NCBI GenBank assembly: GCA_964016885.1
Contig: OZ024742.1
Coordinates: forward strand, 333,932,001 to 333,996,000
Length of the DNA stretch: 64,000 bases
Reading direction: 5' to 3'
DNA from: Eledone cirrhosa
Taxonomy: Eukaryota
Shown here: one piece after another, positions 168 through 51,724 of the stretch
Numbering within the stretch: position 1 is the first letter of the stretch
How the letters are laid out: each line of letters starts with the position of its first letter
Notes under the pieces: model-generated
The model's input: the letters and a program-made list of their open reading frames with translations, nothing else
The model's database searches: none
Told to the model about the DNA's origin: nothing
Made by a program: the position numbers and the translations under genes

Positions 168-566
168 GTAATACAGTATTTACGTATCGAGAAAGAGAAA
201 AAAAGGGGAGGATAGGTGATACATATAGTTATTTGCCAAGTAGCGTATGCCATAGGTGCTCGATACTAGTGCCGGCAGTATTAAATATTCGAAGTGTTAA
301 TATTTAGTGGGCTAGAGAGTTAGCAGAGCGTAAGCACGTGGGAAAGTAAGAAATCGGAGAATAGACCGTTAAAACATGTTTATTTAAAACACCACCTACG
401 TACGTTTCGCCCAGTTGGGCTTCTCAAGGGCATAAATAATCACAAGTGTTCCTTATATTGCTCGGAAAGAGTTTTGGGGGTTAAATCCACATCAAGGTTC
501 ATTGCTAGCAAAAATATCTTGTTTTGATTTTGCAGCAGGTCAAGGGAGGTAACTCTGGCCGGTGTT
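168..566 (-). repeat. PLE pseudo-LTR (3' copy)
   Basis: Near-identical to 3481-3879; contains a hammerhead motif. Confidence 0.9.
395..430 (-). ncRNA. Minimal type-I hammerhead ribozyme, U3-A8 variant
   Basis: Minus strand CC-UUGAGAA-GCCC(AACU)GGGC-GAAAC-GUAC-GUA-GG; palindromic stem III ACGUACGU. Confidence 0.8.
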
Positions 567-759
567 GGGGCAGTCTTTCCCGGACAATTTTTTTTTTTTT
601 TTTTTCGCCGCATCTGTTTGTCTGAGGCTGGGTCTGGTATGCAAGGATAGTTTCCTGGGTGTTATTTTGCAGCGCCTGCCCGCCGGGGTGTTAAGACTTG
701 TTGCAGGGAGATCCGGTGTACGGTTTCACTCCTCATTCTTAACCCATCTGAAGAAGGAT

Positions 760-3441
760 ATTTTTAAGCGATGTGTACAACTTATCGCTGTTTCAGCTCT
801 GCTTGTTGATGAGCTCGTGGGGTGCAGTTATGATGTGGTAGAGCTCAATGAGGCAAAGATCGCATTTCCTCTTGAAGTTGTACGGTGCAGCCCTGTCGAA
901 AATCTCCCAGTGCGTGTAGAAGCTGATGTTTAAGTCCTTTAGTGATGTGATGTAGTCCGCGAGCGAAGTGGAGTGCCTTAGTTTTCTTTTTGTGAAAGAG
1001 TGGAGATGTGTTCGAAACCTAATTTTGAACGGGCCGGAGGTAGCCCCTATATAATGTTTAACGCTATTGTGGCTAGTAATAGTTCATCTATATATAACCC
1101 TATCAGTTAAGCAGTATCCTCTAAGGGGGCAGCGTCCTCTGTCGTGGCAGTTGCAATTTCTGTCGCGGTTCCGTCTATTTCCCACGGTAAGGCTATCATT
1201 GTTGCTGCCTACGCAGCTGTCGATAGCACCATTACAACCCACAGCACGCGGGGTGGTGCGATTGTTATTCCGCACGTCATGTCCTGCATGTTCCCCAGTC
1301 ATTTCGCAGTTATGCTGGTTGTGTCTGCGGATGCCGTTGCCAACACTATTGGATGCTGCCAGGGAGTTGTTAAGGCCGATATAGTTATTGTCAGGTGTAG
1401 GTGCGTCTGTGTCGAGGTGCTGTGTGTTGGTGATCTTTCTGTGGTTCGTTGTTCCTATGATGTCTGCTAGGTTAAGAGTAGTAGAGAAGGATATTTTTAT
1501 ATTGTTCCTATTAAGAATTTTTCTATACCTATGGTTGGGCGGGAAGTTCTTCTCTAAGGCTTCGAAGAACATCCGGGGTATGTTGGAGGCCACACTCCGA
1601 GAGTAGGGTGGGGGAGGGGAACCATAGGACGTTACGGTGGCGATTATGTGTCCTTGTACTTTTGCTACGGGTGGTTCCATCTAGGTGACCGCTCTTATGT
1701 GTGTTAATGCGCAGACGCCCGTTCGCTTCCCCTTTCACTTTATGCTCGGGTGTACTCTTCCTACCTCTTCCATGTTTATGTACACGAAGATGTTGGTTGG
1801 AAGGCGTTGGTAGTAAGCCGTCGCCTTTGTTGGTTTTGTAATAGGGGAATAGTTCGAGTAATCTACAGTGTTCACCATCGCCGGGGTCGTGATCTTTGGT
1901 GCGGTTATCTATTTTATTATATCCGACTTCAACGAGGTCGCCGCGTAATCGGTTATAGGTATGGCTTACTATAACGTTTGTTTTATGAGGGGGGTGGTTT
2001 CTAGAGCTAGCGTTAGGGATGTAGGAAATTCCTCGGTTAAAGCCGGCGCTTATCAAGGCCCTATTGTAGTAATCTGCCGCTTGGTTGAAGATATCCTCAT
2101 TGGCGGATAGCCTCGAGATTCTATGTGAGATACTATAGACTATGGAGTTGAGAGTCTGCTTAGGGTGGTTGGAGGAATAATTAATATAAGAGAGGCACTC
2201 TCCAGGCTTATCGTATGGCTTGTATAAGCCCGTACTCAACTCCAGGGTCACGTCTAGGAAGTTGACAACCCTGTGGTTGAGGTCCATATTTACGGATAGG
2301 CCGTATGACTTGAACCTGTGTATATGTTTGTTAAGGTTCTCTATCCTACGGGGGCTATGGTTCCTAACGGTAAACTGGGCGTTGTCCCTATATACACCTC
2401 CTTGTAGGGCCGGTATCTCTTCCCTAAGCTTATGTAGGAGGTATATCCCGACCAGGTCAGTTGCTTGCGCTGAGTCACTGGACCCCATCGTGACATCGAA
2501 GTTATCAGGACGGTTGGTTCTGGTCCAGTGGGAGCCTTCGAACTGGATAATGGTTCTACGCGCCGCTAGAATTATGCCTATTTCTTTTTTAGTGAGACTA
2601 GTGTTAGATCTAGCTAAGATAAGTGCCTTATTTAAGAGTATGGGGGAGATAGACGCGTAGTAACTATCTATATCAAACTGGATGAATTTCAGGGTGGCTT
2701 TATCCTGCAACTCGGTGAACCAATTTATGACCTGGTCGGTGTTGCCTCAGAGGCAGACCTTAGCCTTTCTATTAAGCTCGAGTAGTACTCTGTCAAGGAT
2801 CACTTTACTAATCTTACCTATATCTGATGTAGAGGGGCATATTAGTCTAATAAAGGGGCTTTCATTAAAGTCATATTTGTCATCCTTAAGAGATAATTTA
2901 GGCGTCAGAGGGACGTACGGGTTAGTGTACTTTTCTATTTCTAAGCTGGTGACTATATCCTTCCCTATTCTATTTGTGTCATTTAGGGTACTAGAGGGTG
3001 TCTTTTTGTAGTCTTGTGTAGTTCCTTATAGATGAATTTTTTATACCCACTCGCGTCCATCTTGTACAGCTTTTTGGTTTTGTCGGAGGTGACGAAGAGG
3101 TGCGGGTCATTCTTGATCTTAGTTATTAGTGTATCAAGGGACGTTAAGAATGGATTGCTGCATTGGTGTTTCTTTCTGAACTTAACGTTTTTGATTATTT
3201 TCAGCAGGTCCTCTTCAAAGGAGTCTAGTAAGGTGTTGTGAGGTGGGTTTCGGTATGTTTTGAAGCCATACCTCTCTTTGGGTTCAGGAAGGTTACGGGT
3301 GTTCTCATCCAGGTGGTAGGCCTTCCATCTGACTCTCCGTATAAACGTATTAGTAGCGTCTATAAGCAGTTTAAGGTAGGTTTTTCTGCTGGGTAAGGGG
3401 ATACACTTGAGAGACATGGGTAACGGCTGGTTCTCCAACAT
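760..3441 (-). pseudogene. PLE polyprotein pseudogene: reverse transcriptase + GIY-YIG endonuclease, frameshifted
   Basis: ORFs 2983-3441, 1529-2710 (FIQFDIDSYYASI, FDVTMGS, YRDN instead of YRDD, NFLDVTL, YINYSSNHP) and 1084-1680 (CNC..CPL.G.CL..VIY), followed by HYIGAT and CDLCL motifs near 850-1060. Confidence 0.9.
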
Positions 3442-3480
3442 AATGGCAAATAAGGTGAGATGCTCTACAAAAGGAGCACG

Positions 3481-3879
3481 GTAATACGGTATTTACGTAT
3501 CGAGAAAGAGAAAAAAAGGGGAGGATAGGTGATACATATAGTTATTTGCCAATTAGCGTATGCCAAAGGTGCTCGATACTAGTGCCGGCAGTATTAAATA
3601 TTCGAAGTGTTAATATTTAGTGGGCTAGAGAGTTAGCAGAGCGTAAGCACGTGGGAAAGTAAACAATCGGAGAATACACCGTTAAAACATGTTTATTTAA
3701 AACAGCACCTACGTACGTTTCGCCCAGTTGGGCTTCTCAAGGGCATAAATAATCACAAGTGTTCCTTATATTGCTCGGAAAGAGTTTTGGGGGTTAAATC
3801 CACATCAAGGTTCTTTGCTCGTAAAAATATATTGTTTTAATTTTGCAGCAAGTCAAGGGAGGTAATTCTGGCCGGTGTT
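3481..3879 (-). repeat. PLE pseudo-LTR (5' copy)
   Basis: Direct repeat of 168-566 immediately upstream of the ORF start. Confidence 0.9.
3708..3743 (-). ncRNA. Minimal type-I hammerhead ribozyme, U3-A8 variant
   Basis: Identical core to 395-430. Confidence 0.8.
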
Positions 3880-3894
3880 ATATATATATATACT

Positions 3895-4904: not shown

Positions 4905-5470
4905 GTATGTATATATGTGTATATGGATGTGTAAGTATGTGTATGTGTGTACACATGGACTAGAGTATGTATGTATATATGAGTGTGTCTATACGTGTGT
5001 ATATAAAGATAAGTTGAGTATGAAAATGTATACACATGAGCGCGTATGTATGTATATGAATACATGTGTGTATATATATGTGTATGCATGTGTATATATA
5101 TGTAAGTATGAATATGTGAATTGTGAGTATATGTATTTTGTAGAGGTGTGCAAATATATTTGTGTGTGAATGCGTGGGTGAAAGGATACGTACACTTGAA
5201 AGAAAAATTTAAGTCTGAATGTTAATTAAGTGCAAACACAAAACCAACCACGCATATCTTTACTATCTCTAATCCTTCTATAGATTTAGAAAAATAACCA
5301 ATAATATATTCTATAAAAAATGTCAAAACAACAGATGGGAATCTAATTACTCACTGCCACCAAGAATTCTCACTGCTATCGAAAAACCACTCCTTCAACT
5401 ATTCTTCTAACAACTTCACCCCTCCCTCCTAATATTCTCTATAAAAACTAAATAGGTCCTCAGTAATATT

Positions 5471-5514
5471 ATTCTGATGAAATGACAGTAAATAATAACA
5501 TTGAAATATTGAAT
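5471..5514 (+). ncRNA. Hammerhead-like motif in a probable decayed PLE 3' end
   Basis: CUGAUGA-AAUG(14 nt)CAUU-GAAAUAUU; weak stem I; a second GAAAC-ACGU-GUC-AAUAAA at about 5569-5586. Confidence 0.5.
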
Positions 5515-5619
5515 GTCTGCATAACTAAAAGTTTGTAGATAGCTGTTTTAGGTTATGTAACTGTTATAGAAACACGTGTCAATAAATTCCTTTCAACTAA
5601 ACTGTATCCATTCAAATCT

Positions 5620-5702
<83 letters not shown>

Positions 5703-6102: not shown

Positions 6103-6160
<58 letters not shown>

Positions 6161-6165
<5 letters not shown>

Positions 6166-6943
6166 TAAACGGAATAGAAAATGCTGACAAATTGTTCACA
6201 ATTGAAAAATGGTTTAATTAGGAATAAAAGAGTATTAGTGATTGTATGGGTTAGTATTCAGTTGTGGTTTTAAGTTTTTAATTTTTTGACCGGTTGCGCA
6301 TTTCTAAATGCTTTTCAAAAATAATTTTGAGAAAGAGTGTCCGTGCTGTTTGCTCTGATCTGATTAGTTTTGGGAATTCTACCTGTTTTTATGTTAAAAA
6401 AGAGGCTCCAGCGTTATTTTTGTGTTGCAAAATTGCTTGTGGTCAAAACAATTTTGATTGGTCGGTAGAGGTCATGTGAATGTAAAAAGTTGATTTTGCG
6501 CCAAGACTGTTTTTATGTTAAAAAAGTGGCTCCAGCAAAAATTCTTGGTCAAAACAATTTTGATTGGTCGGTAGAGGTCATGTGGATAAAAAATTGGTTT
6601 TGCGCCAAGATTGAGAAATGACTCTTTCACAACAAATATGTGTGTGTGTGTGTGTGTGTGTGGAGCCACTTTTTTAACATAAAAACAGGTAGAATTCCCA
6701 AAACTAATCAGATCAGAGCAAACAGCACGGACACTCTTTCTCAAAATTATTTTTGAAAAGCATTGAGAAATGCGCAACCGGTAAAAACTTAAAAACTTAA
6801 AACCACAACTGAATACTAACCCATACAATCACTAATACTCTTTTATTCCTAATTAAACCATTTTTCAACTGTGAACAATTTGTCAGCATTTTCTATTCCG
6901 TTTACCAATATATAATAACTTGTGTGTTACACCTCTATTCTTT

Positions 6944-6948
<5 letters not shown>
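6161..6948. mobile_element. Fold-back element with about 250-bp arms carrying variant hammerhead motifs (probable PLE pLTR derivative)
   Basis: Arms 6161-6410 and 6661-6909; motif UUU-UUGAAAA-GCAUU(GAGA)AAUGC-GCAAC-CG-GUA-AAA at 6750-6786 and its mirror at about 6284-6322. Confidence 0.75.
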
Positions 6949-7017
<69 letters not shown>

Positions 7018-7431
7018 TATATATATATATTGTATATCGCTTAGTGCCAGCACAAGCCCAGAGAATTATCTATGTCTGTATGTGTATGTATGATTAATAT
7101 TTGCTTACACATATACATAGATCATGCATACCTACATGTATTCACACATATATACATTGTTACATTAATACATACATACATGCATACATAAAAATACATA
7201 TATATACAGGCATGCATATATTTATATGAAGTAATGAACAAATAGTATAAGTGGAATATAATACCAATTATCCCCTTGGTTCCTTATAATACCCATCAAT
7301 ATGCTTGCATCGTGATGTCATATATTTGCAATTATTTGAATCTACTCTATGGATGTTGACTCAGATGACATTACCATATATAAATTTTGATAGTAATAAT
7401 ATACTTAGCTCTCTATGGTCTGGTCATTACA

Positions 7432-7580
7432 TAATTGTTTCTACTTTTGGCACAAGGCCAGCAAATACCCAGTGCATTACTGGTACTTTATTTTATCGAC
7501 CCTGGAAGGATGAAAGGCAAAGTTAACCTCGGCGGGATTTGAACTCAGATCATACATGGAGGTAACTCTATGCTTCAACA
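7432..7580 (-). mobile_element. tRNA-derived SINE (MetaSINE-core, octopus OK-like), partial
   Basis: Reverse complement of the GAGTTCAAATCCC B-box and TTTCATCCTT..GGGGTCGATAAAATAAAGTACCAG core. Confidence 0.8.
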
Positions 7581-7903: not shown

Positions 7904-8000
7904 CATGTATATATATATATATATATAATTAAACATATACATGTATACATAAAAACACATACACGCACACACACATATATCATATATATATATATATATA

Positions 8001-8196
8001 TATTCAATATAGAAATAGCTTCTACAGGACTAGAACTGTTTCAATCGGGATAAATCACGAGGAAGCCGCGATGAATTCTCCCGAATGAAACAATTCTAGT
8101 CCTATAGAAGCCATTTCTATATTAAATATTTATACTCTGCTATGTATTGAGTACCTCCCTTACTTTGGTTTCCCCCGATTGAACACGGAATAAACT

Positions 8197-8198
<2 letters not shown>
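8001..8198 (+). mobile_element. Small asymmetric fold-back element with degenerate hammerhead
   Basis: Arms 8001-8050 and 8079-8128; CGCGAUGA-AUUC(UCCC)GAAU-GAAAC..GUC; solo arm copy at 43141-43184; (TA)n flanks. Confidence 0.6.
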
Positions 8199-8289
<91 letters not shown>

Positions 8290-13702: not shown

Positions 13703-13775
<73 letters not shown>

Positions 13776-15968: not shown

Positions 15969-16020
15969 CATATATGTATACATATATATATATATGTATA
16001 TATATTTATATATATAGTAT
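15640..16020. repeat. (TA)n/(TACA) microsatellite
   Basis: Direct observation. Confidence 0.95.
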
Positions 16021-16218
16021 TAAGGATACTATTTATGATTATGTATATACTAACACTTTTTATAGTTATATATATATTATACCCTAAATAGTGAAAGACA
16101 GTAATTTATTACTATCTTTTTACCAGTAAGATAAATAGCTCAATGTAACAACATCAGTTGTTTTACAGAGTAGTTATATAGAGATTACATGAAACAAAGT
16201 TCTGTTTAAATCATTCAT

Positions 16219-16267
16219 TTGCTTACAATTGTTTCTTCCAAACCGAGGTTTGATGTCTTCGGAGCAA
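16219..16267 (-). ncRNA. Hammerhead-like motif (U4C variant or decayed)
   Basis: Minus strand UUGCU-CCGAAGA-..CAAACC(UC)GGUUUG..-GAAAC-AAUU-GUA-AGCAA; 5-bp stem I, palindromic stem III. Confidence 0.65.
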
Positions 16268-17539
16268 TTATTCAGTGATTTTTAACATACTTGACCTCCT
16301 TTTCAACACAAGAGACATATAGAAACATATATATATATTGACCCACAGTGGGTTGACATCCATTATAATAATATAGCATGGTAATTTACATACAAAGATT
16401 ACAGTCATATTAAAGGATAAAATTAAAGTTAAAATTAAAATTAAAATTAAAATAAAACATTGGCAGTCTACTAAGATAAAGCAAAAGGAAAGTTTGGAGT
16501 AACCAGTGTATGCAACAGTCACACGTGTGGCATGCACGCGTATCCTATTTATACAAGATTATAGTGCGGCAGATTGTTACAAGTAAAACAAGCAGTCAAA
16601 GCAGGCAATCAAGAGCATCATGGGGGCTGAACTGGTAAAGCATTATTCACACACACCTGTACGATATAGAAGCCCATGTGTGGAGAAACACCAAACATAT
16701 CAAAAATATTACAGATGAGAAGCAAAACAGCACCACTGTCCTCGTACACACCACCACTCTCACAGTCCAGGAAACGCAATTTATAGACTACATGTCCATC
16801 TCACAATCCACGATGATTCAACATTGGGTGCCTGGCGAACCATGCTAGAACATCACTGCATGTCGTTCTTTAATTCGATTCCATAGACCAGGTTGTTTTT
16901 GTTGTGAGAGATGACATCGTATTATATTCCGGAAGTGTGTGTGTGATTAAGGGGAGATAATGCGTAAGGGAGGTAACTAGCTGATTTCTATAGCTAAATG
17001 TATTATCCTAAAGTACATTAATGGTGTCTCAAATGAGTTCCCATCATATAAGGTTATAAACAATTTCTAAATTTAAGTATCTTATCTATAAATATCAGTG
17101 TAGTCTATCAAGAAGTACTAAAGGTGTTCATATTAGGATGATTACCTTGTATCATAGTGTGCCCCCACCGAACATTCCACATGAAGAGTCAGATCTCCAA
17201 ATCAATGATCTTTGTAAGTGTAGTCCAACCGCAGGACCTGGCAGGGTCTTATTAGAATCAGTTCTATATATGACTCCTGGTAAGTTCCGGGTCATTGCAT
17301 GTCTGTTTGCATGGCAAAGTTAAATATCACTAGGGTAGTCCAGAGATCAATTGTCACTTACAAAGACACTAATCTGACCATCACGTCATACATGTATTTA
17401 TAACTCATACATCACCTGTACATAATTCATTGCACTCAGCATATAGATTATATAGCTCTTTTATGTTAATAAATTAATTACTTAATCTTCCATTTATCCA
17501 ATCATGGCACTAAATACACAGGACAATGTTAGCACAACC

Positions 17540-24708: not shown

Positions 24709-24932
24709 ATAGGAACGAGTAGGACCCCGACGGCTGAGCTCAAGCGGTTTCGACGGCTAATTCTGGATTAAAAAAAAAAAAAACTTTTTTTTTTTAGTCC
24801 AGAATTAGCCGTCGAAACGGCTTGAGCTCAGCCGTCGGGGTCCTACTCGTTCCTATTACCCACTCTACTACCCTAAGTATTGAGTACTTTGGTGCGTTAT
24901 GGTCCACCTGGTTCCTTACCACATTTCCTTCG

Positions 24933-24934
<2 letters not shown>
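24709..24934 (-). mobile_element. Fold-back family A, copy 3
   Basis: Near-perfect hairpin 24709-24856 with A/T-run centre, then unique tail; (TA)n flanks. Confidence 0.85.
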
Positions 24935-30262: not shown

Positions 30263-30274
30263 ATGATAATAATA

Positions 30275-30497: not shown

Positions 30498-30504
30498 TGT
30501 TTAG

Positions 30505-34463: not shown

Positions 34464-34471
<8 letters not shown>

Positions 34472-34827
34472 AAAAAGAGATGAAATCGAAAATGCAACTG
34501 AAGTCTTATTTTTTTTTTAAATATATATATTTATTTGGTTCCTTTACCGGTTTCGCAGTTCTTCTGCTTTTCAAAAGGTGAGTTGAGATGGAGGGTCTGT
34601 GGTTTTTCTCACAGATGTGAGAAAAACCACAGACCCTCCATCTCAACTCACCTTTTGAAAAGCAGAAGAACTGCGAAACCGGTAAAGGAACCAAATAAAT
34701 ATATATATATTTTTAAAAAAATAAGACTTCAGTTGCATTTTCGATTTCATCACTTTTTCTTTATACTTCCACTCGTGTAGGAGACCTCGGTTATTTTTCA
34801 TTTTGTAAAAAAAACCTCACTTTCTAA
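34464..34827 (+). mobile_element. Near-perfect fold-back element (150-bp arms) with two mirror U3-A8 hammerheads
   Basis: Arms 34464-34613 and 34616-34765, 2-nt spacer, extra tail to about 34827; (TA)n flanks. Confidence 0.85.
34651..34688 (+). ncRNA. Minimal type-I hammerhead ribozyme, U3-A8 variant (mirror copy 34541-34578 on minus)
   Basis: CCUU-UUGAAAA-GCAG(AAGAA)CUGC-GAAAC-CG-GUA-AAGG; all three stems pair. Confidence 0.82.
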
Positions 34828-34847
34828 TATATATATATATATATATG

Positions 34848-35284
34848 AGGGTGTTAAAGTTTGCTTGAAGCATTGTGAAATGTGTAAAATACGTAGTTAA
34901 GAAAGCCACAACAATGCAGAGGGAAATCTCGAGGTAGGAAGTGAATGATAGATAGGAGAAACAGGTGAAAGTGAAAATTGAGAGAGACAAAGATGAAAAC
35001 AAAACAAAGGTAGAAGGGTTACCGTAGTGGAGATTTAATCCCAATATTTCGGGCTCACGCCCATCAACGGGGGAAAAGTTCCAAAAGGGGGGGAACAGGC
35101 CAAGCGGAGAAAGTTGTGATGTCGTTAAGACATCACAACTTTCTCCGCTTGGCCTGTTCCCCCCCTTTTGGAACTTTTCCCCCGTTGATGGGCGTGAGCC
35201 CGAAATATTGGGATTAAATCTCCACTACGGTAACCCTTCTACCTTTGTTTTGTTTTCATCTTTGTCTCTCTTAATTTTCACTTT
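34848..35284 (-). mobile_element. Fold-back element (156-bp arms) with non-canonical hammerhead-like motifs
   Basis: Arms 34968-35123 and 35129-35284 with one visible mismatch; motif at 35178-35213 (+) and 35039-35074 (-). Confidence 0.8.
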
Positions 35285-35464
35285 GGACCCGACGGCAGAG
35301 CTCAAGCCGTTTCGATGGCTATCTCTGGACTAAAAATAACCGTCGAAACGGCTTGAGCTCTGCCGTCAGGGTCAAACATTTTCCAATTACCCACTCTACT
35401 ACCCTAAGTTTGAGTACTCTGGTGCGTTGTGGTCCACCTGGTTCCTTACCACACCTCCTTCGTT
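35285..35464 (-). mobile_element. Fold-back family A, copy 4
   Basis: Same sequence and hairpin; short arm truncated by the adjacent element. Confidence 0.82.
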
Positions 35465-35747: not shown

Positions 35748-35941
35748 AACGAAGGAAATGTGGTAAGGAACCAGGTGGACCATAACACACCAAAGTACAC
35801 AATACTTAGGGTAGTAGAGTGGGTAAAAGGAACGAGTAGGTCCCCGACGGCTGAGCTCAAGCCGTTTCGACGGCTAATTCTGAACTGAACAGAATTAGCC
35901 GTCGAAACGGCTTGAGCTCAGCCGTTGGGGTCCTACTCGTT

Positions 35942-35946
<5 letters not shown>
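35748..35946 (+). mobile_element. Fold-back family A, copy 5
   Basis: AACGAAGGAAATGTGG start, hairpin, ends TTCCTAT then (TA)n. Confidence 0.85.
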
Positions 35947-38179: not shown

Positions 38180-38900
38180 TAATAATTGTTTCTACTTTTG
38201 GCACAAGGCCAGTAGTTATCCCAGTACGTTACTGGTACTTAAATTTATCGACCCCGTAAGGATGAAAGGTAAAGTTAACCTTGGCAGGATTTGAACTCAG
38301 AACGTAAACTATGGGACGTAACTATGCTGGAAAGCATGGCGTCCGATCCTCTACCGATACTGCCAATTCACACGATAATAATTGTTTCTCCATTTGGCAC
38401 AAGGCCAGCAATTGTACCAGTGTATTACTGGTACTTTATTTTGTCGATCCCGTAAGGATAAAAGGCCAAGTTAACCTCCGCGGGATTTGAACTCAGACCA
38501 TAAAGGGCTGTAACTCTTTGCTGCAAAGCATGGCGTACGACCCTCTACCGATACTGCCAATCCAATGGCGAACAATAATTTCTTTTTTTTTTTTGCTTGG
38601 GGACAATCTATTGAATAGACCCCACTGCGGGATTTGAATTCCGAACATAGACAATTGTAACTAAATATACGAATCATTTTGTCCGAAGCTCTACCCATAC
38701 CGCCAAATAATAAGGGTTTCTGATTTAGGCAAAAAGCCACAAATTTTGGAGGCGGGGAAAGTCGATTAAATCGACCCAGATACTTTATTTTATCGAAACC
38801 GTAAGGATGAAAAGCAAAGATAACCTCGGCGCAACTCAGAACGCAAAGGGCCATAATTCTATACGCAAAACTTGGTGTCTGACGCTCTGCAGTAATACCA
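38180..38900 (-). mobile_element. Cluster of about four tandem MetaSINE-core SINEs
   Basis: Units near 38180-38372, 38378-38565, 38620-38703 (partial) and 38710-38900. Confidence 0.82.
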
Positions 38901-39277
38901 AAGCCCCATATCGCATGACTATGAAAACACTTCACCTGTTTATACATTGGTTCTTCATAATATTCATTTTCAAAACTCCTCAAATACCGTTTGATTGGGT
39001 AAGAAAAAGGTTGTCCCTGTAGTGTTTACTTGCAAAATCATTATATGCTCTTAAAAGTGTTATCACTTGTTCATTATCCAGCTCACAGAGCATATACACT
39101 GTATCAATGTTCATGTCGACGTGTATCACTTTTCGCGAGTTTTGTAAACCTAATTTCGAATGTCTACCAGCTGTTTGGTTTTTAACGAACATTAAACATT
39201 TGTTTGAAGAATATATACTCTTCTCTTTTTTCTCTCTATTCCAACAGATATCTGCTGGGATATATATTTTTCTCTTT

Positions 39278-39505
39278 GGAGCGGTGGATTAGCAGTAACG
39301 GTAGGGCGCCAGAAACCATGCTATGCAGCATAGAGTTAGGGCCCTTTATGTTCTGAGTTCAAATCCCGCCGACGAGCTTAACTTTGCCTTGTATCCTTAC
39401 GGGGGTCGATAAAATAAAGTAACAGCCACGCACTAGGGTCGGTTTAATCGATTTTGCCCCTTCCCCTCAAAATTGCTGGCCTTGTGCCTATAGTAGAAAT
39501 CATTA
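39278..39505 (+). mobile_element. MetaSINE-core SINE, full length
   Basis: Head, B-box, core and tail present. Confidence 0.85.
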
Positions 39506-39680
39506 TTATCATTATAATATATTATCATTATAATATATTATTTTGATTACTAAAGGATAGAACTGGTCGCTCTGGTAAGCATATCATGATAAAACAAATC
39601 TTCAAAGCACTCAACGTTATGCAATTCATCGATTGTAGATGTAGTATCAAGTTGTTGGTGCAGGAACGGAGTAAAGTATT

Positions 39681-40008: not shown

Positions 40009-40161
40009 ATAGGAAAATGTTTGACCTCGACGGCAGAGCTCAAGCCGTTTCGACACTGCTGTCGAGGTCAAACATTTTCCTATTACCCACTCTACTACCC
40101 TAAGTATTGAGTACTCTGGTGCGTTATGCTCTATCTGGTTCCTTACCACACTTCCTTCGTT
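40009..40161 (-). mobile_element. Fold-back family A, copy 6 (hairpin centre deleted)
   Basis: Same ends as other copies; (TA)n flanks. Confidence 0.85.
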
Positions 40162-40185
40162 ATATATATATATATATATATATAT

Positions 40186-40845
40186 TAGGATTGGTGCTCT
40201 GAAATAGCGATGTATACATGCATGTATTTATAGTATATTTGGTGATATAATGTGTGTTTAATTAAAAACATTTCGAAGACCTTGTGCTATTTTTTTAAAG
40301 TGGTGACTATGTCACTTAGGGAGATAAACTGACATATCTGTTTCACACTCTTGGTGTTCATCAGAGCAACGCACTCGCCGACCTCTGCCGAAAATTATAG
40401 AGACTGGATTCTTATAGAATTCCAGTAATAATCAGGAACTGATTATACAGAGCAATTGCCGGTCCAGCTTATCTCCCTTCATTTGGTGAAAAAAGAAGTA
40501 AGTGACATATTCACTACTTTAAAATTATAACGCAAGTTTTCAAAATGTTTTTAATTAAATATACAGTATATCACCAAATATACACCGGCAATCGCTCTGT
40601 ATAATCAGTTCCTGATTATTACTGGAATTCTATAAGAATCCAGCCTCTATAATTTTCGGCAGAGTTCGGCGAGTACTAGGCTCTGATGAACACCAACAGT
40701 GTGAAACAGATATGTCAGTTTATCTCAATTCCTTTGCTGAAAAAAGAACTAAGTGACATAGTCACCACTTTAAAATAATAGCGCAAGGTCTTCACAATCT
40801 GTTTAATTAAACATACAGTATATCACCAAATATACTGTACTTACA

Positions 40846-40850
<5 letters not shown>
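40186..40850. mobile_element. Non-coding hammerhead element: partial tandem plus inverted copy (retrozyme-like or PLE pLTR derivative)
   Basis: Inverted arms 40232-40463 and 40584-40836; spacer 40466-40583 is a direct repeat of 40717-40835. Confidence 0.8.
40681..40718 (+). ncRNA. Canonical type-I hammerhead ribozyme (mirror copy 40329-40366 on minus)
   Basis: CU-CUGAUGA-ACAC(CAACA)GUGU-GAAAC-AGAUAU-GUC-AG. Confidence 0.85.
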
Positions 40851-40889
<39 letters not shown>

Positions 40890-40999
40890 TTGCGAGGTTT
40901 TTCATATGAAATCGTGTGTCGAAGCAAATATTGTTATACTTGGGGTGATGGATAAATGACATTGCGAAATAACATTGAGGAAAGGTGAGGGTTTAAAAG

Positions 41000-43124: not shown

Positions 43125-44282
43125 ACATATATATATATATAATAGAAATGGCTTCTACAGGACTAGAACTGTTTCGTTCGGGATATATATATATATATAC
43201 ATATATACATGTATAATTAGGTGATTCAGTAGATATGTAGTTTATTGGGCGAAGTACCAATATTAGCACTTTATGTTACACCAGAGTATATACATTGAGA
43301 AGAAAAGAACATGGTTTCTCATTGATATTTTAATTGATTAGGATCAACGGACTTCTCATACGTAGGAGGATTAGGATCCGTATTAATGTTATAGACCGGA
43401 CTTTATCCACAATCTGCTGAGCAGATTGTGAAGATCGGAGAAGGAAACGTGTCTATTACACAAATATGTATCCTGAGTCACGGATCTGTGAAACGTTCGT
43501 AACATGTAACCCAGTACAACATGTCTCATGTTCAGATCATCGGTGACTAAACCAGCAACCCCACCAAACTTGTTTGATGAGGGGGAGGGTGATATTTGGA
43601 CACCCTGCGAGATGAAATACAAGACCTGGCAAAGGGCGGAGAAACTCAGCAGATTCAACGGCCTTCCAATTGGCTGAGGGCTGTCGTTGTATTTTCCGTG
43701 GCAAACATTTCAACCGACGATATGTGTCTTCAGTTCCAAAAGTTTGGATCGTCCTACACAAGTCTTCACCACATAAAACAAGACTTTGTGTGGGTAGTTC
43801 AACATCAGTTTACTTTGTAACATTTAATTTTTGTTGGACACTGATACGGCGAAAGTCCATCATACATATGCATATATTTATGTGTGTATGCATGTGTGTG
43901 TCTGTGTGTATGTGTGTTTGTGTATTCAGACACTAAGGTTCTGACGGGCGTATATGAATTGGTGAAGCATAATACCAATTAAACTGACAAGTTTATGGAA
44001 TGAAGTGTACGTTTTAGTCCAGTCAGTAATTAGTGTTCCTAATTAACGTACCACCATTGGTGTATAGATTTTGATGTAAAAACACGAGCTATCATTTCCA
44101 CACATGTACACATAATAACGTTTTTCTTTCTCTTCTAATTTAGGCCCCACCTCTTCACCATCACCGATATCGCTTTCTCAGTTGAAAATTGTTTTGTTGT
44201 GTACGCTGGTACACCATTTTATTTAGCATTAAATGCATCTGTCTTTATTTTATGATTGGATGTATTGATTTATAAACGGTGT

Positions 44283-44414: not shown

Positions 44415-44820
44415 CGTGGAGAAGTAAAATACAGAACAGACCGCTAAAACATGTTTATTTAAAATAGCACCTACCTACCTCTCGCCCGAATGGGCTTCTC
44501 AAGTGCATGACAACTAAAAAGTGTTCCTTACATGACACGGAATAGATTTTTAGAAATAAGTTCAAGTCAGAGTTCATTCTTCGTAAAAAAACACGTTTTG
44601 ATTTTGCAGTAGGTCAAGAGAGATAACTCTGGCCGGTGTTAGGGCAGTCCTTTCAGGGCAAATTTGTTATCCGATACAAGCATGGGGTTACTACCTTCCA
44701 TTGCCGATACGCACAGGGCCAGGTATGCAACGTTTGTTTCAAGACGTTTGTTAGCTGCGCCTGCTCGCCTGGGTCGATTCATGCCGGGTCTGGGATGCAT
44801 GGTTAGTTTCCGGATGTTTT
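44415..44820 (-). mobile_element. Diverged 3' end/pLTR of a PLE related to 168-3879, with decayed hammerhead at 44467-44506
   Basis: Aligns by eye to about 335-660 (AAAACATGTTTATTTAAAA, GGGCTTCTCAAG, AACTCTGGCCGGTGTT). Confidence 0.8.
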
Positions 44821-44827
44821 TATATAC

Positions 44828-44931
<104 letters not shown>

Positions 44932-45223
44932 GAAAATAGATAGATAAATAGATAGATAGATATGTTTCTTTATTAGCCACAGGGGCACAAAAGAAGGGGA
45001 CAAATACACAGGGGAAAGTTTACATACAATAAAAACGTGTAAAATATTATCACAAATGCAATTTAAAAAATTAGTCGATTTTCCCCAATAGGGGGAGACA
45101 GTTTTTATGGGTAACACATACCCCCGAAAAAACCTTCATCTCCAGGAGTACGAAGAGTTTGTACTCCTTTCCTCTCCTCCTCCTTTTCCCCAGCCTACAG
45201 GCTGATATAGAGAGAAGGCCCAT

Positions 45224-48200
45224 TCACTTGGGCCATTCTCGCCACTTCACCCACTTTTCATAAAACTTGCTGGGGTACAGCACATCTCTCTCCATCCTGA
45301 TTCTTCTTCCAAAGTGGTATTTGAAAAAAAGAATCAGTTGTTGGCCGGAGAGAAAGGTGTCTGACCTCAGCCCTTTCAACCTTGTCCACCATACAACCTC
45401 TTTCGCCATAGCTATCACACAAAGGAAAACCGCCTTTCCTTCGTTTTTGAAGGAGGGTGGCGGTTTGATCATGAAAATGGAAACGGTGGTCAACCGGATT
45501 GGTCTCACCCGCGACAATAGTCGTTCTACATAGCCCCACAGGTCAGTGACGCCCGGGCAGTGTATGAATGCGTGCGCGACGGTTTCTTCGTTACGCACGC
45601 ACCTCGGACAGATCTTTTTTGTAGAGTCCCTGCCCGGGCGCCCGTGTCTGTAGAGCTTGTCTCGAACTGGTAGAGCACCTCGGTAGCACTGCCAGGCCAG
45701 GGACTTTTGGAAGTTGTCCATCAGTCCCGGGCGGAAGGTCCTACCGAACAGACTCGACAGTTCATCTTCCTCTACGCCTAGAGTTTCACCGAGCGCGTCG
45801 TCGCACTTGCTGCGGATCAACCCTCTATAGAATGACGAAGTGGAGTCTCCACTGATCGCCGGGTCCGCCTGCCAGAGTGCTGTGAGCGCCTGAGCACATT
45901 CGATGTGCCAGTCGGCCATTTTCCTCGCTCTTTGCTTGACCCAGAACTGCAGCTCGGTCAGCGAGACGAGTCGTGGGAAGGCTCGCCTCACGAACGGGGC
46001 CCACACCAGTTGTCCGGTGAGGAATACGTAGAGATGCCGCAGCCTGAGTGCGTGTTTGCGCATCGTCAACCACGGCAAACCCAGCCCTCCGTTAGAAGGG
46101 TGTTGGCAGCAGATGGAACTTCTCACCAAAGGAGCCCGCTTCTTCCAAAGGAATTGGAAGAGCGCGCGCTCCATTTCGGCGAGCGTTTTGGCTGGACAAG
46201 GCAGGACGGTCAAGCGGTAGTAGATGGCGGACGCTATAAAAGTGTTCGCCACCTCCGCTCGACCTTTCAAGTATAGTTTGCACTCGGCCCACTTCTGGGT
46301 GAGTGCAAACCCCTTGGCCGTCACTTCGTTTCAGTTCTTCTCCACCTGGAGGTCCGGACCAAACCAAACCCCGAGCAGCTTTACCGGTCCTTCCGTCCAG
46401 CGCCCGATGACGCCATCGGAAGGCATCGGTTTGCCTCTCCACGATCCGAGTTGCAAACCGATGGACTTGTCCCGGTTCAGCTTCGCTCCTGTGAAACTTT
46501 CGTATTCCTTCAATAAGATGCCGACTTCCTCGATTTGCGAGGCGCTCGACAATCTACTGTCCCGTCGGCGTAGGCCGACGCCGCTTTCCGCAGTCCCGGT
46601 TCCAGAGGGATGCACTGCAATAGCTCCAACTTCCGCAGTAGTGGCTCGAGAGTCAGTACGTACAAAAGGGAGGAGAGAGGGCATCCCTGTCGAATGGATC
46701 GCGTAATATGGAACGGCTCCGAGAGGTAGCCGTTCACCTTGACCCTTGAGCAGATGTTGCCGTTGTGCATTGCAGCAATCCAGTCTCTTAACACGGTTCC
46801 GAAGCCTGCCGCCTCGAGCACCGCAACCAGGTAACGATGGTCAACCCTATCGAAAGCCTTAGACTGATCCAAGTTGATCAGGGCCCCACCGAAGCCGGGT
46901 TTACACCCTACCCTCTCTAAGATGTATCGCAATAGGTGGAGGTTGTCGTGTATGGACCTGGTCGGGATTGCGCATCTCTGCGCTTCTCCCACCAGGTTCT
47001 CGACGACAAGCGCCAGCCTCTTTGCCAAAACCTTGGCCAAAATCTGTAACTCTGTGTTTAGCAGAGTTATGGGGCGGAAGTTGCCTATGTCATCCCCTTT
47101 ATTCTCGTCCTTCCTGACTAGTGTGACCCCGCCCCCGGTTACAGAACTGGGAATTCTCCCGTTCTGTTGCCAGTTGCAATAGACCGCTTCCAGGAGACGG
47201 GAGAATAAGTCCGGTATTACTACGTAAAATTAGTAGGGTAGACCGTCGAGACCTGGAGATTTGCATTTGCCGCATTGGCTAAGCGCGTCCCCTATCTCAG
47301 CGGCTGAAATCGGCTTTTCGCAGATCTTTGCCTCGCTGTCCGAGAGTCGCAGTAGGCCGTCGAGGTATGGACCGATATCCATAGCCCCTTCCGGCGCGCC
47401 GCGCCGCCCGAACAGTTGAGCAAAGTGCCGCTGAAAGGCCGTACACATCTGCTTCGGCTCACGTTACACGCGTCCGTTTTGGTCCTTCAAAGACCGAATC
47501 GTGGACCTGTTGCCACTTTTTGCCACCGTCACTCGGGCCCAGCTAACAGCTTTGGCTCTCTCGTTTCCCAGAGCACGTATTTTGCTTCTGACAACGCAGC
47601 TCTCGTGCTTTGCGTTGAAGAACTGGTCCAAGGGCGTTCTCGTTGCTAGCACGCTGGCTACGTTGCCACTTCTAATTGCCTCTTCTACTTTATCTACCAG
47701 TTCCTTCTCGGTTCTATTTCCATCTAACGCTAATTCTTTACTAAAAGCTAACGAGTCTAATCTAACTGCCCTCTTGCGAGAGTACCACCATCTGTTGTTG
47801 ATAATGGCCCCTGTCAAGTGCTGTGTAACTAAAGTTCGTAATCCGTCTACTGTAGGCTTTGCTTGTCGGTAACGACAAGTTCAGATTCCAGTAGCCGGGT
47901 CCTTGTCTATGGGTTCTATCAAGGTTGGCCATGCATGGCACTAGTTTGTGATCTGAATAGGCAACCATGAACATTTGTGGACAGCTTAACATGTCCCTAT
48001 CCTTATTTCTAACTAGAACCCTATCTAGGTACGATCTAGATGTTCCGCTTCGATTAGTCCACGTCCACAGTGGCACAAGGGAAAATCTAGTCGATATCTA
48101 TCGGCCAGGTCAAATCGGTCGATTAACTGTCCGAGGCTGTTACACCCCCCTTATTCGGGACATGCTCCCGCATACTCCCAACGTACATCTAGGATTCCAT

Positions 48201-48626
48201 TCCAGTCCCCCACTAAAAGCAAGGAGCGGGAAGTTCCCAGAAAAGTCTCTAGACGTTTGAAGAAGTCTGGCCATGGTGTCCCGGATGGGGTATATGCAGC
48301 CACCAGCCTGAAGGCTCCACCTTCACTACCGTCAACGTCTAGGACCACCAGTCGACCCTCCGGGTCCAGATGTACCGTCTGTGTTACGAGGCCCAGGTGT
48401 TTCCGCAGCAACACGGCAACTCCGCCCCATCCCCCGGTTGACAGAGAGATGCGTAGATCTCAAAGTCATCGAAGATGGGGGCCAGCTGTCGCTCGCTGTG
48501 GATCCTGGACTCGCAAATGGCTACCACATCCATACTGTGCAACCTGAGGTCGTTTAAGAGTTTGCCCTGTTTCCAGGGCCTCCCCAGGCCGCGTATGTTC
48601 ACACATCCAACTCTTATATTGGCCAT
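45224..48626 (-). pseudogene. LINE ORF2 pseudogene (apurinic endonuclease + reverse transcriptase + zf-RVT)
   Basis: VNIRGL, VVAICES, VGDWN, SYLDRVLV, SDHKLV, KSPGLDGLP, LDQSKAFDRVDH, IRQGCPLS, AYAD, CPRC..EETVAHAFIHC across frameshifted ORFs. Confidence 0.93.
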
Positions 48627-48629
48627 GTT

Positions 48630-50480
48630 GGTGCTGAAAAGTTAAAGAGGAAAAGAGATCACTCACCCTTCGTGTCCTGGGGACCAGGCTGCACGATTTC
48701 CATGGGTTGTTGGAGGGGTTGTCTGGGTGGGTGGTGGTTTCCGGCGGGGTGGGGACGGAGATGTTTGGTGGGGTGGGGCCTGGTGGGATGGGGGTGTCTG
48801 GGGTGGCGAGACATTTGAGAAGGACGCGGTTAAGTGGTTTCACGCAGGAATTCCCCACATCCTTTTCAAATGTTTCTTTTAGTGACCTATAAGTTTGTAT
48901 AGGGACCCTAATCAGTTTTAGGTTCAGTTTTTTGTTATTTTTAATAGAGTGGGCGAAAGTTTTCCCTTCGGTTTTCACCGAAGGGTCGTTCGTGATGATC
49001 TCCATTAGTGTTTTGTTTTCAGTGTTTATGTAAGTGTAAGTGTAATTTTCTTGTGTTGTGTTTGTTTTTGTCTGTAGTTCTTGTGTGTGCTTTCGTTTTG
49101 TTGTAGGTATTTTGTTTTCAGGAGGTGGGGTTTTGTTTGTGATGTTTTTTGTTGTTTGAGTTGGTGGTTGTATGTTTGTGGTAGTGTTTGCTGGTTTTTT
49201 GCTTTTGTGATGTCTTTTCTTTCTTTTCGAGCGATGGGGTTCTCCCTCGTCTTCACTGGATGATGGTGAGATAGCCTCATCTGTTGTATCGTCTGTGTCA
49301 TTGGGGAAGGGTATGTCTTGGGGAGCTATTGTGTCTGTATGTGATTTTGCAGTGGTTTTAGGTGGAGTTGGGTTGGGTGGGACTGTGTTTGTTGTGGTTA
49401 TTTTTGTGTGTTGGTGTTGTTGTTGTTGTGGTGGTGTTGGTGGTTGTGTTGTTTTGATGGGTGTCGGCAGATGAGCCTTTTTTTTACTCATTAATTTAGG
49501 ACAGGAAGCCCTCAGGTGACCCATGCTAAAGCAATGGTAACATGAAGACCGCCTTACCTCAACCGAAAATTTTATGTAGGTGAGTCCGTCCAGGAGTACA
49601 CGTTGTGGGATCATAGCTATTCGCTCTGGGCTCATTTCCACCAGAACTTCAACGCTAGTCCCATTGAATACATCTCTGGGGGACTTTCCTACTGACAGTA
49701 TTCTGTCTTCATCAAAATTGATGAAGCCGCACAGTATCCACCATATGTTCACCTTTGGTGTGACACTCGTGATTTTAATCTTTTGTGTCCTTTTTCCCAT
49801 GTATGTAGGGAAAAAAGGTATACAGGTTGGATACAATTGGCGACACAGAGTAATTTTGGGCCGTCAATTGATCCTTCATGAGTACCGAAATACTCCCAAA
49901 GAGTTTGCTTCTTTGAATGAATGCAATATCATTCATTGAATTTTTGAAAACCAGTTCAATTTCTTTCTGTGACAATTGGAGTGGTTTTCGGGTAGAATTG
50001 GAAACTATCCTAAAAACTATCGTTTTGAGAGCAGTTTCCGGGCGAATTTCTACCGGAGAATTGATGCTAAATGCACCATTTTTTCGAAAGTGACATATCT
50101 CCTAGCGTTGTTCGGCATTTGTTATGTCGAGATATGTCAGTTCCTCCTTTTTCTGAACTGTCTGGCAAAGGAGATTTTTGGTTTCTTTGTGGAATTATCC
50201 GTGTTGGTGGTGTTGTCATTATTGTTGTTATTGTTGTTGTTATTCTTGTTGTCACTGATGTTGATAGTATTCGTATTTTCCTTGGTGTTGGTGTTGGTGT
50301 TGTTGTTGTCTTTGATGCTGGTGTTATTGGTGTTGTCTTTATTTTTTTCTTTGTTGTTGTTGTCATTGTTGTTTTTATCATCATTATTGGTGTTGTTATT
50401 TTTGTTGTCGTTGAACTGTTTGGTGTCATTTGTGTTGTTTGGATATGAATTTGTTTTTACATTTTCATTTCGTAGTATCT
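48630..50480 (-). pseudogene. LINE ORF1 (gag-like, CCHC zinc knuckle, Asn/Thr/Pro-rich regions), frameshifted
   Basis: ORF 48466-49836 has CYHCFSMGHLRASC; upstream fragments 49775-49975 and low-complexity 50067-50480. Confidence 0.8.
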
Positions 50481-50781
50481 AGGGAAGAAGACGATCTTGA
50501 CTGCGAGCTATGTAGTCTTACCGACTCTCCAGCACCATTATCGTTGAACGCAGCGTTCATAACGTAATCAAACTTCTTACGATACTTTTTCCAAAATTCG
50601 ATGGAGAAAAGATTTTTCAAACGAATATTTCGCCCCTGTAGGGGCGAAAATGAGTTGACCTGCCACCTGAAGGTCCAGACGGGGGGTCAAGTTACACAGT
50701 AATATACAATTTAACTAAAAACTCACGTTTTTTTCTTACATAAAATAACGGAAACTTCTCCGCGAAGTTACACACGTCAGA

Positions 50782-51480
50782 GTGTATAGAGGAGCCAGAA
50801 CCAAATGGGAAAAAATGGTAAATAATGACACAAATGGGGCCTGCCCCTTGTATAGGAGCAAATTTTGGAATAGAATAGAAAGTACTAGGAATAAGGCTAA
50901 TATAATAAACTCATGGTATAATAGCAATAAATACCAGAGTGTAATGTTCATCGATACAACCCCTAGAGGTGAATTAGCTTACACATTTAGAAGGGCCCTA
51001 TATAAACATAAACTCAATATTAAGATAGTAGAAAGACCAGGTACCTCCGTAAAAACACTTATTAGCAAGACATACCCTTTTCAAAGACCCCCCTGTATAG
51101 ATAAGAAATGTATAACCTGTAAAATAAGCCCCCATATAAACTGTAAAACTAGAAATGTAGTGTATAGCATAAGATGTACTGAAGGACAATGTAGAGACAA
51201 AAAAAATATAGTGTACATAGGTGAGACAGCTCGTAGTGTAGGGGAACGGATAAATGAACACTGGCGAGACCTTCAAGATAGTAAAGAATCATCTGTACTC
51301 TACCAACATGCTAAAATTGAACATAAGGGTAAATTAGAGAACATAGAAATAAAAATAGAATCTACAAACAGAAAAGACGCAATGTTTAGACAAATCACAG
51401 AGGCAATTAACATAAAAGAATTACAACCAAAATTAAATAGAAAATATGATTGGAACAGCAACATCACAACTTACAATTAA
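50782..51480 (+). CDS. PLE C-terminal fragment: Cys-rich linker + GIY-YIG endonuclease (5'-truncated open frame)
   Basis: CIDKKCITC..CKTRNVVYSIRC..YIGETARS..ERINEH..RQITEAINI..PKLNRK. Confidence 0.88.
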   Translation: MYRGARTKWEKMVNNDTNGACPLYRSKFWNRIESTRNKANIINSWYNSNKYQSVMFIDTTPRGELAYTFRRALYKHKLNIKIVERPGTSVKTLISKTYPFQRPPCIDKKCITCKISPHINCKTRNVVYSIRCTEGQCRDKKNIVYIGETARSVGERINEHWRDLQDSKESSVLYQHAKIEHKGKLENIEIKIESTNRKDAMFRQITEAINIKELQPKLNRKYDWNSNITTYN

Positions 51481-51681
51481 GGACAAAATGAAAACACACG
51501 CGCACATAGAACAAACAACCAACCAGTAACATGTAAATAAACAAATAAATAAACAAATATAAACACACACAGACACCCGGATGTGGCGCATGCGCAGACT
51601 GAGCACACAACACACACACAGAAACAAGATGGCGTAGGACAGAACAAAGGAGAGGCACAAAAACAAAGAAAAGAATCCCCA

Positions 51682-51724
51682 GTCACTGAAGAGGTCACAT
51701 AATGTATGACGAAAGAACTTTGAC
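51682..51724 (+). ncRNA. Type-I hammerhead ribozyme in PLE 3' pLTR
   Basis: GUCA-CUGAAGA-G-GUCA(9 nt)UGAC-GAAAG-AA-CUU-UGAC, 200 bp after the GIY-YIG stop. Confidence 0.78.

What the first reader, a model, noticed from the sequence alone, without database searches (positions are those of the whole stretch)
395..51724. Window-wide system: non-coding, hammerhead-bearing fold-back mini-elements that live in (TA)n tracts
Seen: about 15 type-I hammerhead-like motifs in 64 kb (395, 3708, 5471, 6284, 6750, 8066, 16219, 34541, 34651, 35039, 35178, 40329, 40681, 44467, 51682). At least five unrelated short sequences (6161, 8001, 34464, 34848, 40186, plus family A) share one architecture: (TA)n, short inverted arm, longer arm, then usually (TA)n, with no ORF. 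Known: PLE pseudo-LTRs carry minimal HHRs and PLE insertions can have inverted pLTRs. Inference: these are ultra-short PLE-dependent insertions in which cDNA primed in a TA tract snaps back and copies itself, giving palindromes that could yield self-cleaving RNA from both strands or long hairpin RNA. Whether they are independent non-autonomous families or truncated PLE ends is open.
Basis: partly seen in the sequence, partly recalled or inferred. Interest (0 to 1): 0.72.

Follow-up and report, generated by a model that had tools for sequence, protein, structure and literature searches.

The report
Two-armed Penelope retrotransposon ends
The mirror-image inserts in TA repeats are real, but most are the short cut-off ends of ordinary Penelope-type jumping genes, and their fixed long-end/short-end pattern suggests that both sides of a cut TA repeat likely copy the same RNA rather than one copy folding back on itself.

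Summary
The sequence features are real; the system is not new. Six of 15 hammerheads pass a strict scan (shuffles 0.02), the rest are variants or decayed copies, and stems covary. 40186 is a 316-bp tandem retrozyme-like unit; 8001 is about 450 nt with no ORF link found. Inverted 5' copy, one-sided tail, (TA)n targeting, U3-A8 cores and opposite-strand hammerhead pairs are all published. Simple snap-back is disfavoured: 105 of 105 fold-backs pair one tailed with one tail-less arm, the tail-less arm is the longer in 16 of 105 (including 6161 here), and 7 of 43 unbiased 24711-family copies have non-overlapping arms. Best reading: both nicked target strands prime at two fixed internal sites on one transcript and run off its 5' end, about 30 nt below a TATA-like box. 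The scan reached this reading before on other DNA of this genome.

The parts
168..3878 (-). Full-length, frameshifted Hydra-type PLE between (TA)n tracts; ORF pieces 2983-3492, 1529-2746, 1084-1680
   Evidence: RWK, DKT and CxCx5C motifs read in the ORFs
168..565 (-).
   Evidence: (96.5% to 3481-3878)
3481..3878 (-).
5181..5622 (+). 3' end of another Hydra-type PLE, hammerhead core 5474; no inverted arm
   Evidence: 99.8% to repeats flanking a 637-aa ORF in L246
5718..6101 (.). Two adjacent two-armed inserts of the 24711 family separated by (TA)n
6156..6662 (-). 6161 family, tail-less arm (reference -528 to -33), hammerhead variant at 6284
6661..6947 (+). 6161 family, tailed arm (-286 to 0), hammerhead variant at 6750; 3' end of a Neptune-like PLE
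7995..8199 (.). 8001 family two-armed insert (tail-less arm 7995-8068 minus, tailed arm 8070-8199 plus); hammerhead decayed in this copy
16020..16330 (-). End of a further repeat family with a CCGAAGA-core hammerhead-like motif (16219); no ORF link found
24709..24933 (.). 24711 family two-armed insert with half hammerhead; 3' end of a Hydra-type PLE
34465..34826 (.). 34464 family: tail-less arm 34465-34613 minus, tailed arm 34612-34826 plus, U3-A8 hammerhead in both; 3' end of a Neptune-like PLE
34847..35284 (.). 34848 family: tailed arm 34847-35132 minus, second arm 35120-35284 plus (cut short); 3' end of an RT+GIY-YIG PLE
35288..35463 (.). 24711 family two-armed insert abutting the 34848 element
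35749..35946 (.). 24711 family two-armed insert
40009..40160 (.). 24711 family two-armed insert with shortened centre
40185..40858 (.). 40186 family: tailed arm 40185-40468 minus, partial tandem plus tail-less arm 40465-40858 plus; canonical hammerhead in both arms; 316-bp tandem unit elsewhere
43128..43183 (-). Lone tail-less fragment of the 8001 family between (TA)n tracts
44417..44830 (-). Diverged solo end of the 168-3878 family with decayed hammerhead (44467)
   Evidence: 78% identity
50749..51940 (+). 3' end of a PLE: GIY-YIG-like ORF 50749-51480, pLTR with hammerhead 51682, then (TA)n
   Evidence: the GIY-YIG motif is read by eye, Pfam gave no GIY-YIG hit
55474..55544 (.). 24711 family insert whose two arms do not overlap (tailed arm 29 nt, tail-less arm about -131 to -75)

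Best explanation
These inserts are short head-to-head copies of the ends of several Penelope-like retrotransposon families (plus one or two non-coding relatives) in (TA)n tracts, each made of one tailed and one tail-less arm, and they are likely written by twin priming. Inferred steps: the element's GIY-YIG nuclease nicks both strands of a TA tract; each 3' end primes reverse transcription at one of two fixed, TA-containing sites inside the same transcript, 25-77 nt apart near the pLTR-ORF junction; the downstream polymerase either stops at the second primer (non-overlapping arms) or displaces it and reads on (overlapping arms); both cDNAs usually run off the RNA's 5' end, probably the start site of the pLTR promoter, and are joined there. 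Longer read-through RNAs give the longer and full-length copies with the same two ends.
For: Shown: (1) parent ORFs upstream in the same orientation: 34464 family 2 of 30 loci with the GIY-YIG motif, 6161 5 of 30, 34848 11 of 30, 24711 family 14 of 25 loci fetched with its 3' UTR; RVT_1 and GIY-YIG in Pfam for the first three parents. (2) Fixed ends: tail-less arm stops at -77, -61, -33, -39, -62; 105 of 105 pairs in five families are one tailed plus one tail-less. (3) Tail-less arm reaches more than 15 nt further 5' in 16 of 105, tailed arm in 21 of 105. (4) Unbiased 1 Mb: 43 tailed 24711-family copies, 18 overlapping, 7 non-overlapping, 18 with no inverted arm by script; the 7 tailed arms stop at -85, -84, -81, -77, -70, -41, -41, five of them at the second start. 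(5) Arms share subfamily alleles: 24711 family 56 of 79 against 0.16 +/- 0.04 for random pairing; 34464 site -97 agrees in 15 of 15. (6) 5' ends cluster 24-39 nt below a TATA-like box: 66 of 92 arms (24711), 9 of 15 (34464), 9 of 14 (8001), weakly 3 of 17 (6161) and 2 of 3 (5471). (7) The tail reads in frame into the ORF start. Published: a PLE protein nicks and extends both strands, starts at two internal sites that bound the tail, and is predicted to be a dimer (PMC11167929, parts 1-2 of 4 read).
Against: No biochemical or RNA evidence here. Near-symmetric centres (64 of 105 within 10 nt) also fit snap-back, which PMC3846280 proposes as self-priming (passages). Later deletions in palindromes could make asymmetric or non-overlapping arms. 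In the 34848 family the tail-less arm was never the longer (0 of 14), though loci were chosen for long tailed arms. Allele concordance is poor in 8001 (4 of 60) and in 34464 overall (21 of 63); most of those sites are homopolymer boundaries, alignment ends or alleles favoured by my query, but 4 of 4 testable 34464 copies with A at -74 in the tailed arm lack it in the other arm, and one 24711 copy (L150) has two different known haplotypes. The TATA link fails for the 51682 family (densest window 13 of 47 arms, no box) and was not testable for 34848 (0 unbiased arms, no box near its centres); the TATA test was made after seeing the data. In PMC11167929 priming needed no homology, whereas here both ends have 2-6 nt TA overlap.
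Confidence: 0.6

Rival explanations
1. Snap-back (first reader; self-priming in the literature): one cDNA folds back, copies itself, and the nuclease resolves the second arm at the fixed tail boundary; asymmetric copies are later deletions.
For: Arms share alleles; 64 of 105 centres nearly symmetric; mirrored A/T runs at the centre of 24711; self-priming proposed in PMC3846280 and nuclease resolution of the tail in PMC8557442.
Against: Predicts the tailed arm always at least as long; the tail-less arm is longer by more than 15 nt in 16 of 105, by 242 nt at 6161; non-overlapping arms in 7 of 43 with stops clustered at the second start; lone tail-less copies exist.
Confidence: 0.2
2. Dual priming on two separate RNA molecules, one per nicked strand, from the same source locus.
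For: Explains overlapping arms without strand displacement, independent arm lengths, and the discordant cases (L150; 34464 site -74; 8001). Defined for L1 in PMC2837659 (passages).
Against: Does not by itself give the 105 of 105 one-of-each rule nor the stops at the second start; many subfamilies coexist yet arms match.
Confidence: 0.15
3. The palindromes are independent non-autonomous master elements (MITE-like or fixed hairpin RNAs) copied as a whole.
For: Very high copy number of 130-220-nt forms (43 per Mb); 40186 and 8001 have no ORF link found.
Against: Centres differ from copy to copy; the same ends flank long and full-length PLE copies.
Confidence: 0.04
4. Assembly or library artefact.
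For: Palindromes next to long (TA)n are error-prone (general knowledge); no read spans this locus.
Against: Arms differ by 1-16%, end at family-specific fixed sites, and both ends joined to (TA)n appear in raw Illumina reads of an independent run (X10: 2569, 483 and 3619 reads at the 24711-family ends).
Confidence: 0.01

Closest known systems
Inverted, 5'-truncated insertions of endonuclease-bearing PLEs with a one-sided tail (Craig et al. 2021, PMC8557442, passages and section 11 read; Arkhipova et al. 2013, PMC3846280, passages read)
   Same: Head-to-head inverted 5' copy, tail at one end only, strong 5' truncation, microsatellite targets, palindromic junctions, TATA/Inr in the pLTR.
   Different: Tails here are 25-77 nt rather than 30-40; very short two-armed copies dominate; the one-of-each rule and the non-overlapping class were not in the passages read.
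Hydra clade of PLEs (PMC8557442 section 11)
   Same: RWK/RWR, DKT, CxCx5C linker, short element, hammerhead in pLTR, (TA)n insertion: 168-3878, and the parents of 5471 and of the 24711 family.
   Different: No tree with reference sequences was built; whether these families are among those in the paper's supplement was not checked.
Minimal PLE hammerheads (Cervera and de la Pena 2014, PMC4209133, passages read)
   Same: Type I, short palindromic helix III, U3-A8 covariant core, pairs 100-700 bp apart on opposite strands attributed to truncated PLEs.
   Different: Family-fixed GCAA (6161), shortened core (34848) and CCGAAGA (16219) were not in the passages read; supplements not seen.
Animal non-LTR retrozymes (PMC7229834, passages read; bioRxiv 10.64898/2026.07.22.740005, part 1 of 5 read)
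   Same: 40186: 316-bp non-coding tandem unit with a canonical type I hammerhead; a 299-bp, 8-unit array derived from the 24711 parent.
   Different: Mostly dispersed and two-armed with PLE-type ends; circular RNA not shown; 'inverted' and 'microsatellite' do not occur in the main text of PMC7229834.
L1 twin priming and dual priming (PMC2837659, passages read)
   Same: Second nick primes internally on the RNA and gives an inverted segment; non-overlapping class matches.
   Different: Here the second site is fixed, most arms overlap, and two-armed inserts are the majority (25 of 43).

Membership tests
EN+ Penelope-like element (parents of 6161, 34464, 34848) | RT followed by C-terminal GIY-YIG nuclease | tested here: met
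   Pfam RVT_1 and GIY-YIG in L246, L239, L241/L244; some scores just under the curated cut-off
EN+ Penelope-like element | pLTRs, inverted 5' copy, one-sided tail | tested here: met
EN+ Penelope-like element | RT groups with PLE/TERT in a tree | not tested
   no reference sequences were at hand; PDB search uninformative
Hydra clade (168-3878; parents of 5471 and 24711) | RWK-type motif, DKT for DKG, CxCx5C linker | tested here: met
   168-3878: RWK, DKT, CNCHDRGRC; 24711 parent: RWR, DKT, CNCPDRSIC; L246 minus ORF: DKT, CNCTYPDNC. Pfam gave no RT or GIY-YIG hit for these
Hydra clade | insertion in (TA)n, hammerhead in pLTR | tested here: met
Neptune clade (parents of 6161, 34464) | CX2-5CxxC linker and DKG | tested here: inconclusive
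   CGRSNCGTC and CDRPNCGIC linkers, DKG in the 34464 parent; the linker is shared with Nematis, no tree
Type I hammerhead ribozyme | conserved core with three stems | tested here: met
   6 strict motifs vs 0.017 by chance; not met in full for 6284/6750, 35039/35178, 16219, 8066, 44467
Type I hammerhead ribozyme | stem covariation | tested here: met
   40186 and relatives, 16 distinct rows: 7 of 13 pairs change on both sides, C3-G8/U3-A8 11:5, 0 of 500 shuffles reach the score, slid controls near zero. Rows were picked by a scan that demands pairing, which inflates percent paired
Type I hammerhead ribozyme | self-cleavage | not testable with these tools
   needs in vitro transcription
Non-LTR retrozyme (40186) | non-coding 150-400-bp tandem unit with type I hammerhead | tested here: met
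   316-bp tandem in L084/L090, partial tandems in many of 30 loci, no ORF link in 30
Non-LTR retrozyme (40186) | circular RNA | not testable with these tools
   no RNA holder listed
Non-LTR retrozyme (8001) | tandem unit | tested here: not met
   no tandem seen in 80 loci; about 450 nt, starting at a shared site next to (TA)n
MITE / non-autonomous DNA transposon | fixed terminal inverted repeats around a fixed interior | tested here: not met
   variable centres, unequal ends, continuity with PLE ORFs

The most novel reading that the evidence does not exclude
The long-known inverted, one-tailed PLE insertion is the routine product of a dimeric enzyme that primes both cut strands at two fixed internal sites of a single transcript, with strand displacement, and the tens of thousands of ultra-short two-armed inserts are run-off copies of the transcript's 5' leader, so that their centres map PLE promoters genome-wide.
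Probability: 0.5. Interest if true: 0.62.

Novelty: new member of a known kind. Interest (0 to 1): 0.38.

Why it matters
As a catalogue it is ordinary: new PLE and retrozyme-like families in an animal genome with a published architecture. The value lies in mechanism. How PLEs make inverted structures is named as open in PMC8557442. The counts here (one-of-each rule, non-overlapping class stopping at the second start, 5' ends below a TATA box) turn the in vitro two-start-site result into specific predictions that the existing in vitro system can test, and young near-intact parents (741-aa and 637-aa ORFs in L246) are available for it. Three family-fixed hammerhead variants are cheap to assay.

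Tried and rejected
Rfam window scan: swamped by miRNA-type hairpin matches. The repeat finder: swamped by TA tracts. First hammerhead scan without U3-A8 found 2 motifs. DNA search for the 24711 family returned nothing because its words are too common; copies were taken from other loci and a pattern scan instead. First reading of the 24711 family as a pure retrozyme (299-bp array) was dropped when longer copies led to a Hydra-type ORF. A first classifier of its copies mis-scored non-overlapping ones (14/5/10 of 29) and was replaced; the new one still scores some diverged inverted arms as absent. 5' ends at the hammerhead cleavage site: not seen as a cluster. Walk upstream of 8001 in two steps found no ORF. 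No RNA holder listed. Run X8 gave no test. PDB search uninformative. Paper searches: Penelope + twin priming + inverted gave 2 papers, neither on PLE mechanism by listing; hammerhead + C3U + G8A + Penelope gave none, but U3-A8 is in PMC4209133. Dropped before counts: pairs under 80% identity, 24711 pairs more than 150 nt apart, duplicates, and the 40186 family (tandem reference makes ends ambiguous).
Full report
1. Observation. The window lies in a 3.0-Gb animal genome; its repeats look cephalopod-like to me from recall only. All 15 coordinates hold a hammerhead-like motif. A type-I scan allowing C3-G8 or U3-A8 finds 6 strict motifs against 0.017 in 60 shuffles. The others are looser, family-fixed variants or decayed. 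In 1 Mb of unbiased sequence the same scan gives 4 C-G, 12 U-A, 2 U-G and no C-A, A-U or G-C combinations at positions 3 and 8, and in the 40186 family and its relatives 7 of 13 pairs change on both sides. The motifs are therefore conserved structures, not chance; cleavage is untested. The density of 6 strict motifs in 64 kb compares with 17 in 600 kb elsewhere, so the window is rich but not unique. The fold-backs exist.

2. What the families are. 168-3878 is a full-length PLE with two 398-bp pLTRs, each with a hammerhead. Genome searches (best 40 scored of 356, 106, 3036, 1715 and 2915 candidates; 30 loci fetched each) show that every family has a fixed 3' end at (TA)n and variable 5' ends. 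The 34464, 6161 and 34848 families continue upstream into GIY-YIG ORFs in 2, 5 and 11 of 30 loci; wider fetches show RT plus GIY-YIG, and the near full-length 34464 parent carries the same inverted arm at its 5' end. Its complete hammerhead was found in an 8-unit, 299-bp array and in long copies; 14 of 25 loci fetched with its 3' UTR reach a Hydra-type nuclease ORF. The array unit is pLTR plus ORF start. 5471 is 99.8% identical to the repeats of a 637-aa Hydra-type ORF; 51682 follows a GIY-YIG-like ORF in the window. 40186 is a 316-bp tandem unit without ORF link in 30 loci. 8001 is about 450 nt, without tandem or ORF link in 80 loci; an internal TA tract in an old 3' UTR could hide a parent.

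3. Mechanism. In five families all 105 head-to-head pairs have one arm ending at the 3' end and one ending at or inside a fixed site 33-77 nt upstream (pairs were sought within 400 nt and both arms had to end within 130 nt of the 3' end). Both ends overlap the target by a few TA letters and lie near the ORF start. Centres differ between copies, so they are made at insertion. Arms usually share subfamily alleles (24711: 56 of 79 versus 0.16; 34464 site -97: 15 of 15), so both come from one template or source; 8001 (4 of 60) and the remaining 34464 sites disagree, mostly at unreliable or query-selected sites. Snap-back requires the tail-less arm to lie within the tailed arm. It does not in 16 of 105 pairs, including the window's own 6161 element by 242 nt, and in 7 of 43 unbiased 24711 copies the arms do not overlap, five of them with the tailed arm stopping within 8 nt of the second start. 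That is the twin-priming pattern defined for L1 (PMC2837659). Symmetric centres are explained if both cDNAs reach the same RNA 5' end: in loci not selected with the family's own query, 5' ends cluster 24-39 nt below a TATA-like box in three families clearly, two weakly, not in one, and untestable in one. In the 24711 family this point lies inside stem II, so the short copies hold half a ribozyme. Shown: ends, counts, parents, alleles. Inferred: double nicking, priming sites, strand displacement, promoter position. The in vitro PLE work fits: both strands cut and extended, two internal starts bounding the tail, product length set by the template's 5' end, hammerhead cleavage not needed (PMC11167929).

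4. Comparison with what is known. Inverted 5'-truncated copies, one-sided tails and (TA)n bias, and the Hydra clade, are in PMC8557442. U3-A8 cores and opposite-strand hammerhead pairs 100-700 bp apart from truncated PLEs are in PMC4209133. Palindromic junctions and a self-priming proposal are in PMC3846280. Tandem non-coding hammerhead units are non-LTR retrozymes (PMC7229834), argued to derive from PLEs in a 2026 preprint. One search for twin priming applied to PLE inversions found no such paper in the held library; subscription papers and supplements were not seen.

5. Earlier scan notes. One search, made after my own twin-priming reading was recorded, shows several notes on other DNA of this genome with the same conclusion; they are not independent support. 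One of them prompted the check that reassigned the 24711 family to a Hydra-type parent and anticipates the run-off idea.

6. Verdict. The mechanistic evidence is useful and testable but indirect. Interest 0.38.

Noticed in passing
window 16190-16260 (minus); L008, L010, L102, L112, L249, L271, L287: Repeat family whose hammerhead keeps C instead of U at core position 4 (CCGAAGA; CGGAAGA in L008) with an 8-bp helix II that varies between subfamilies.
   Followed up: partly
window 6284 and 6750; L031-L060: GCAA replaces the conserved GAAA in all 25 copies listed; a relative at 73% identity (34464) keeps GAAA.
   Followed up: partly
window 35039 and 35178; L091-L120: Hammerhead-like motif with a core about 2 nt short, fixed in 28 of 30 copies of a very young family (98-100% identity).
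   Followed up: partly
L231 (G000:C2:356029895-356031745): Eight-unit 299-bp tandem array made of pLTR plus ORF start of the 24711 parent: a retrozyme-like array apparently newly derived from an autonomous PLE.
   Followed up: partly
window 24711-24933; L069: Fold-back centres with mirrored A and T runs absent from the reference upstream sequence; fits slippage at the RNA end or snap-back.
   Followed up: no
L246: Two different near-intact PLEs side by side: a 741-aa RT+GIY-YIG ORF and a 637-aa Hydra-type ORF.
   Followed up: partly
window 59011-62574: 1.8-kb direct duplication at 87% identity overlapping a non-LTR RT ORF at 58137-60263.
   Followed up: no
window 45171-49863 and 28951-30076: Non-LTR element with RVT_1 (46510-47229) and a diverged second copy at 70%.
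   Followed up: no
window 7431-7578, 23613-24197, 30080-30500, 38175-39518, 56261-56973 and others: About 190-bp dispersed SINE-like repeat, more than 20 copies, often in tandem or inverted clusters, not tied to (TA)n.
   Followed up: no
window 17666-18560 (minus): Further Hydra-like nuclease ORF fragment ending at a (TA)n tract.
   Followed up: no
window 13611-13708, 40888-40945: Short end fragments of the 51682 family in (TA)n; this family also has a fixed second end at -62.
   Followed up: partly
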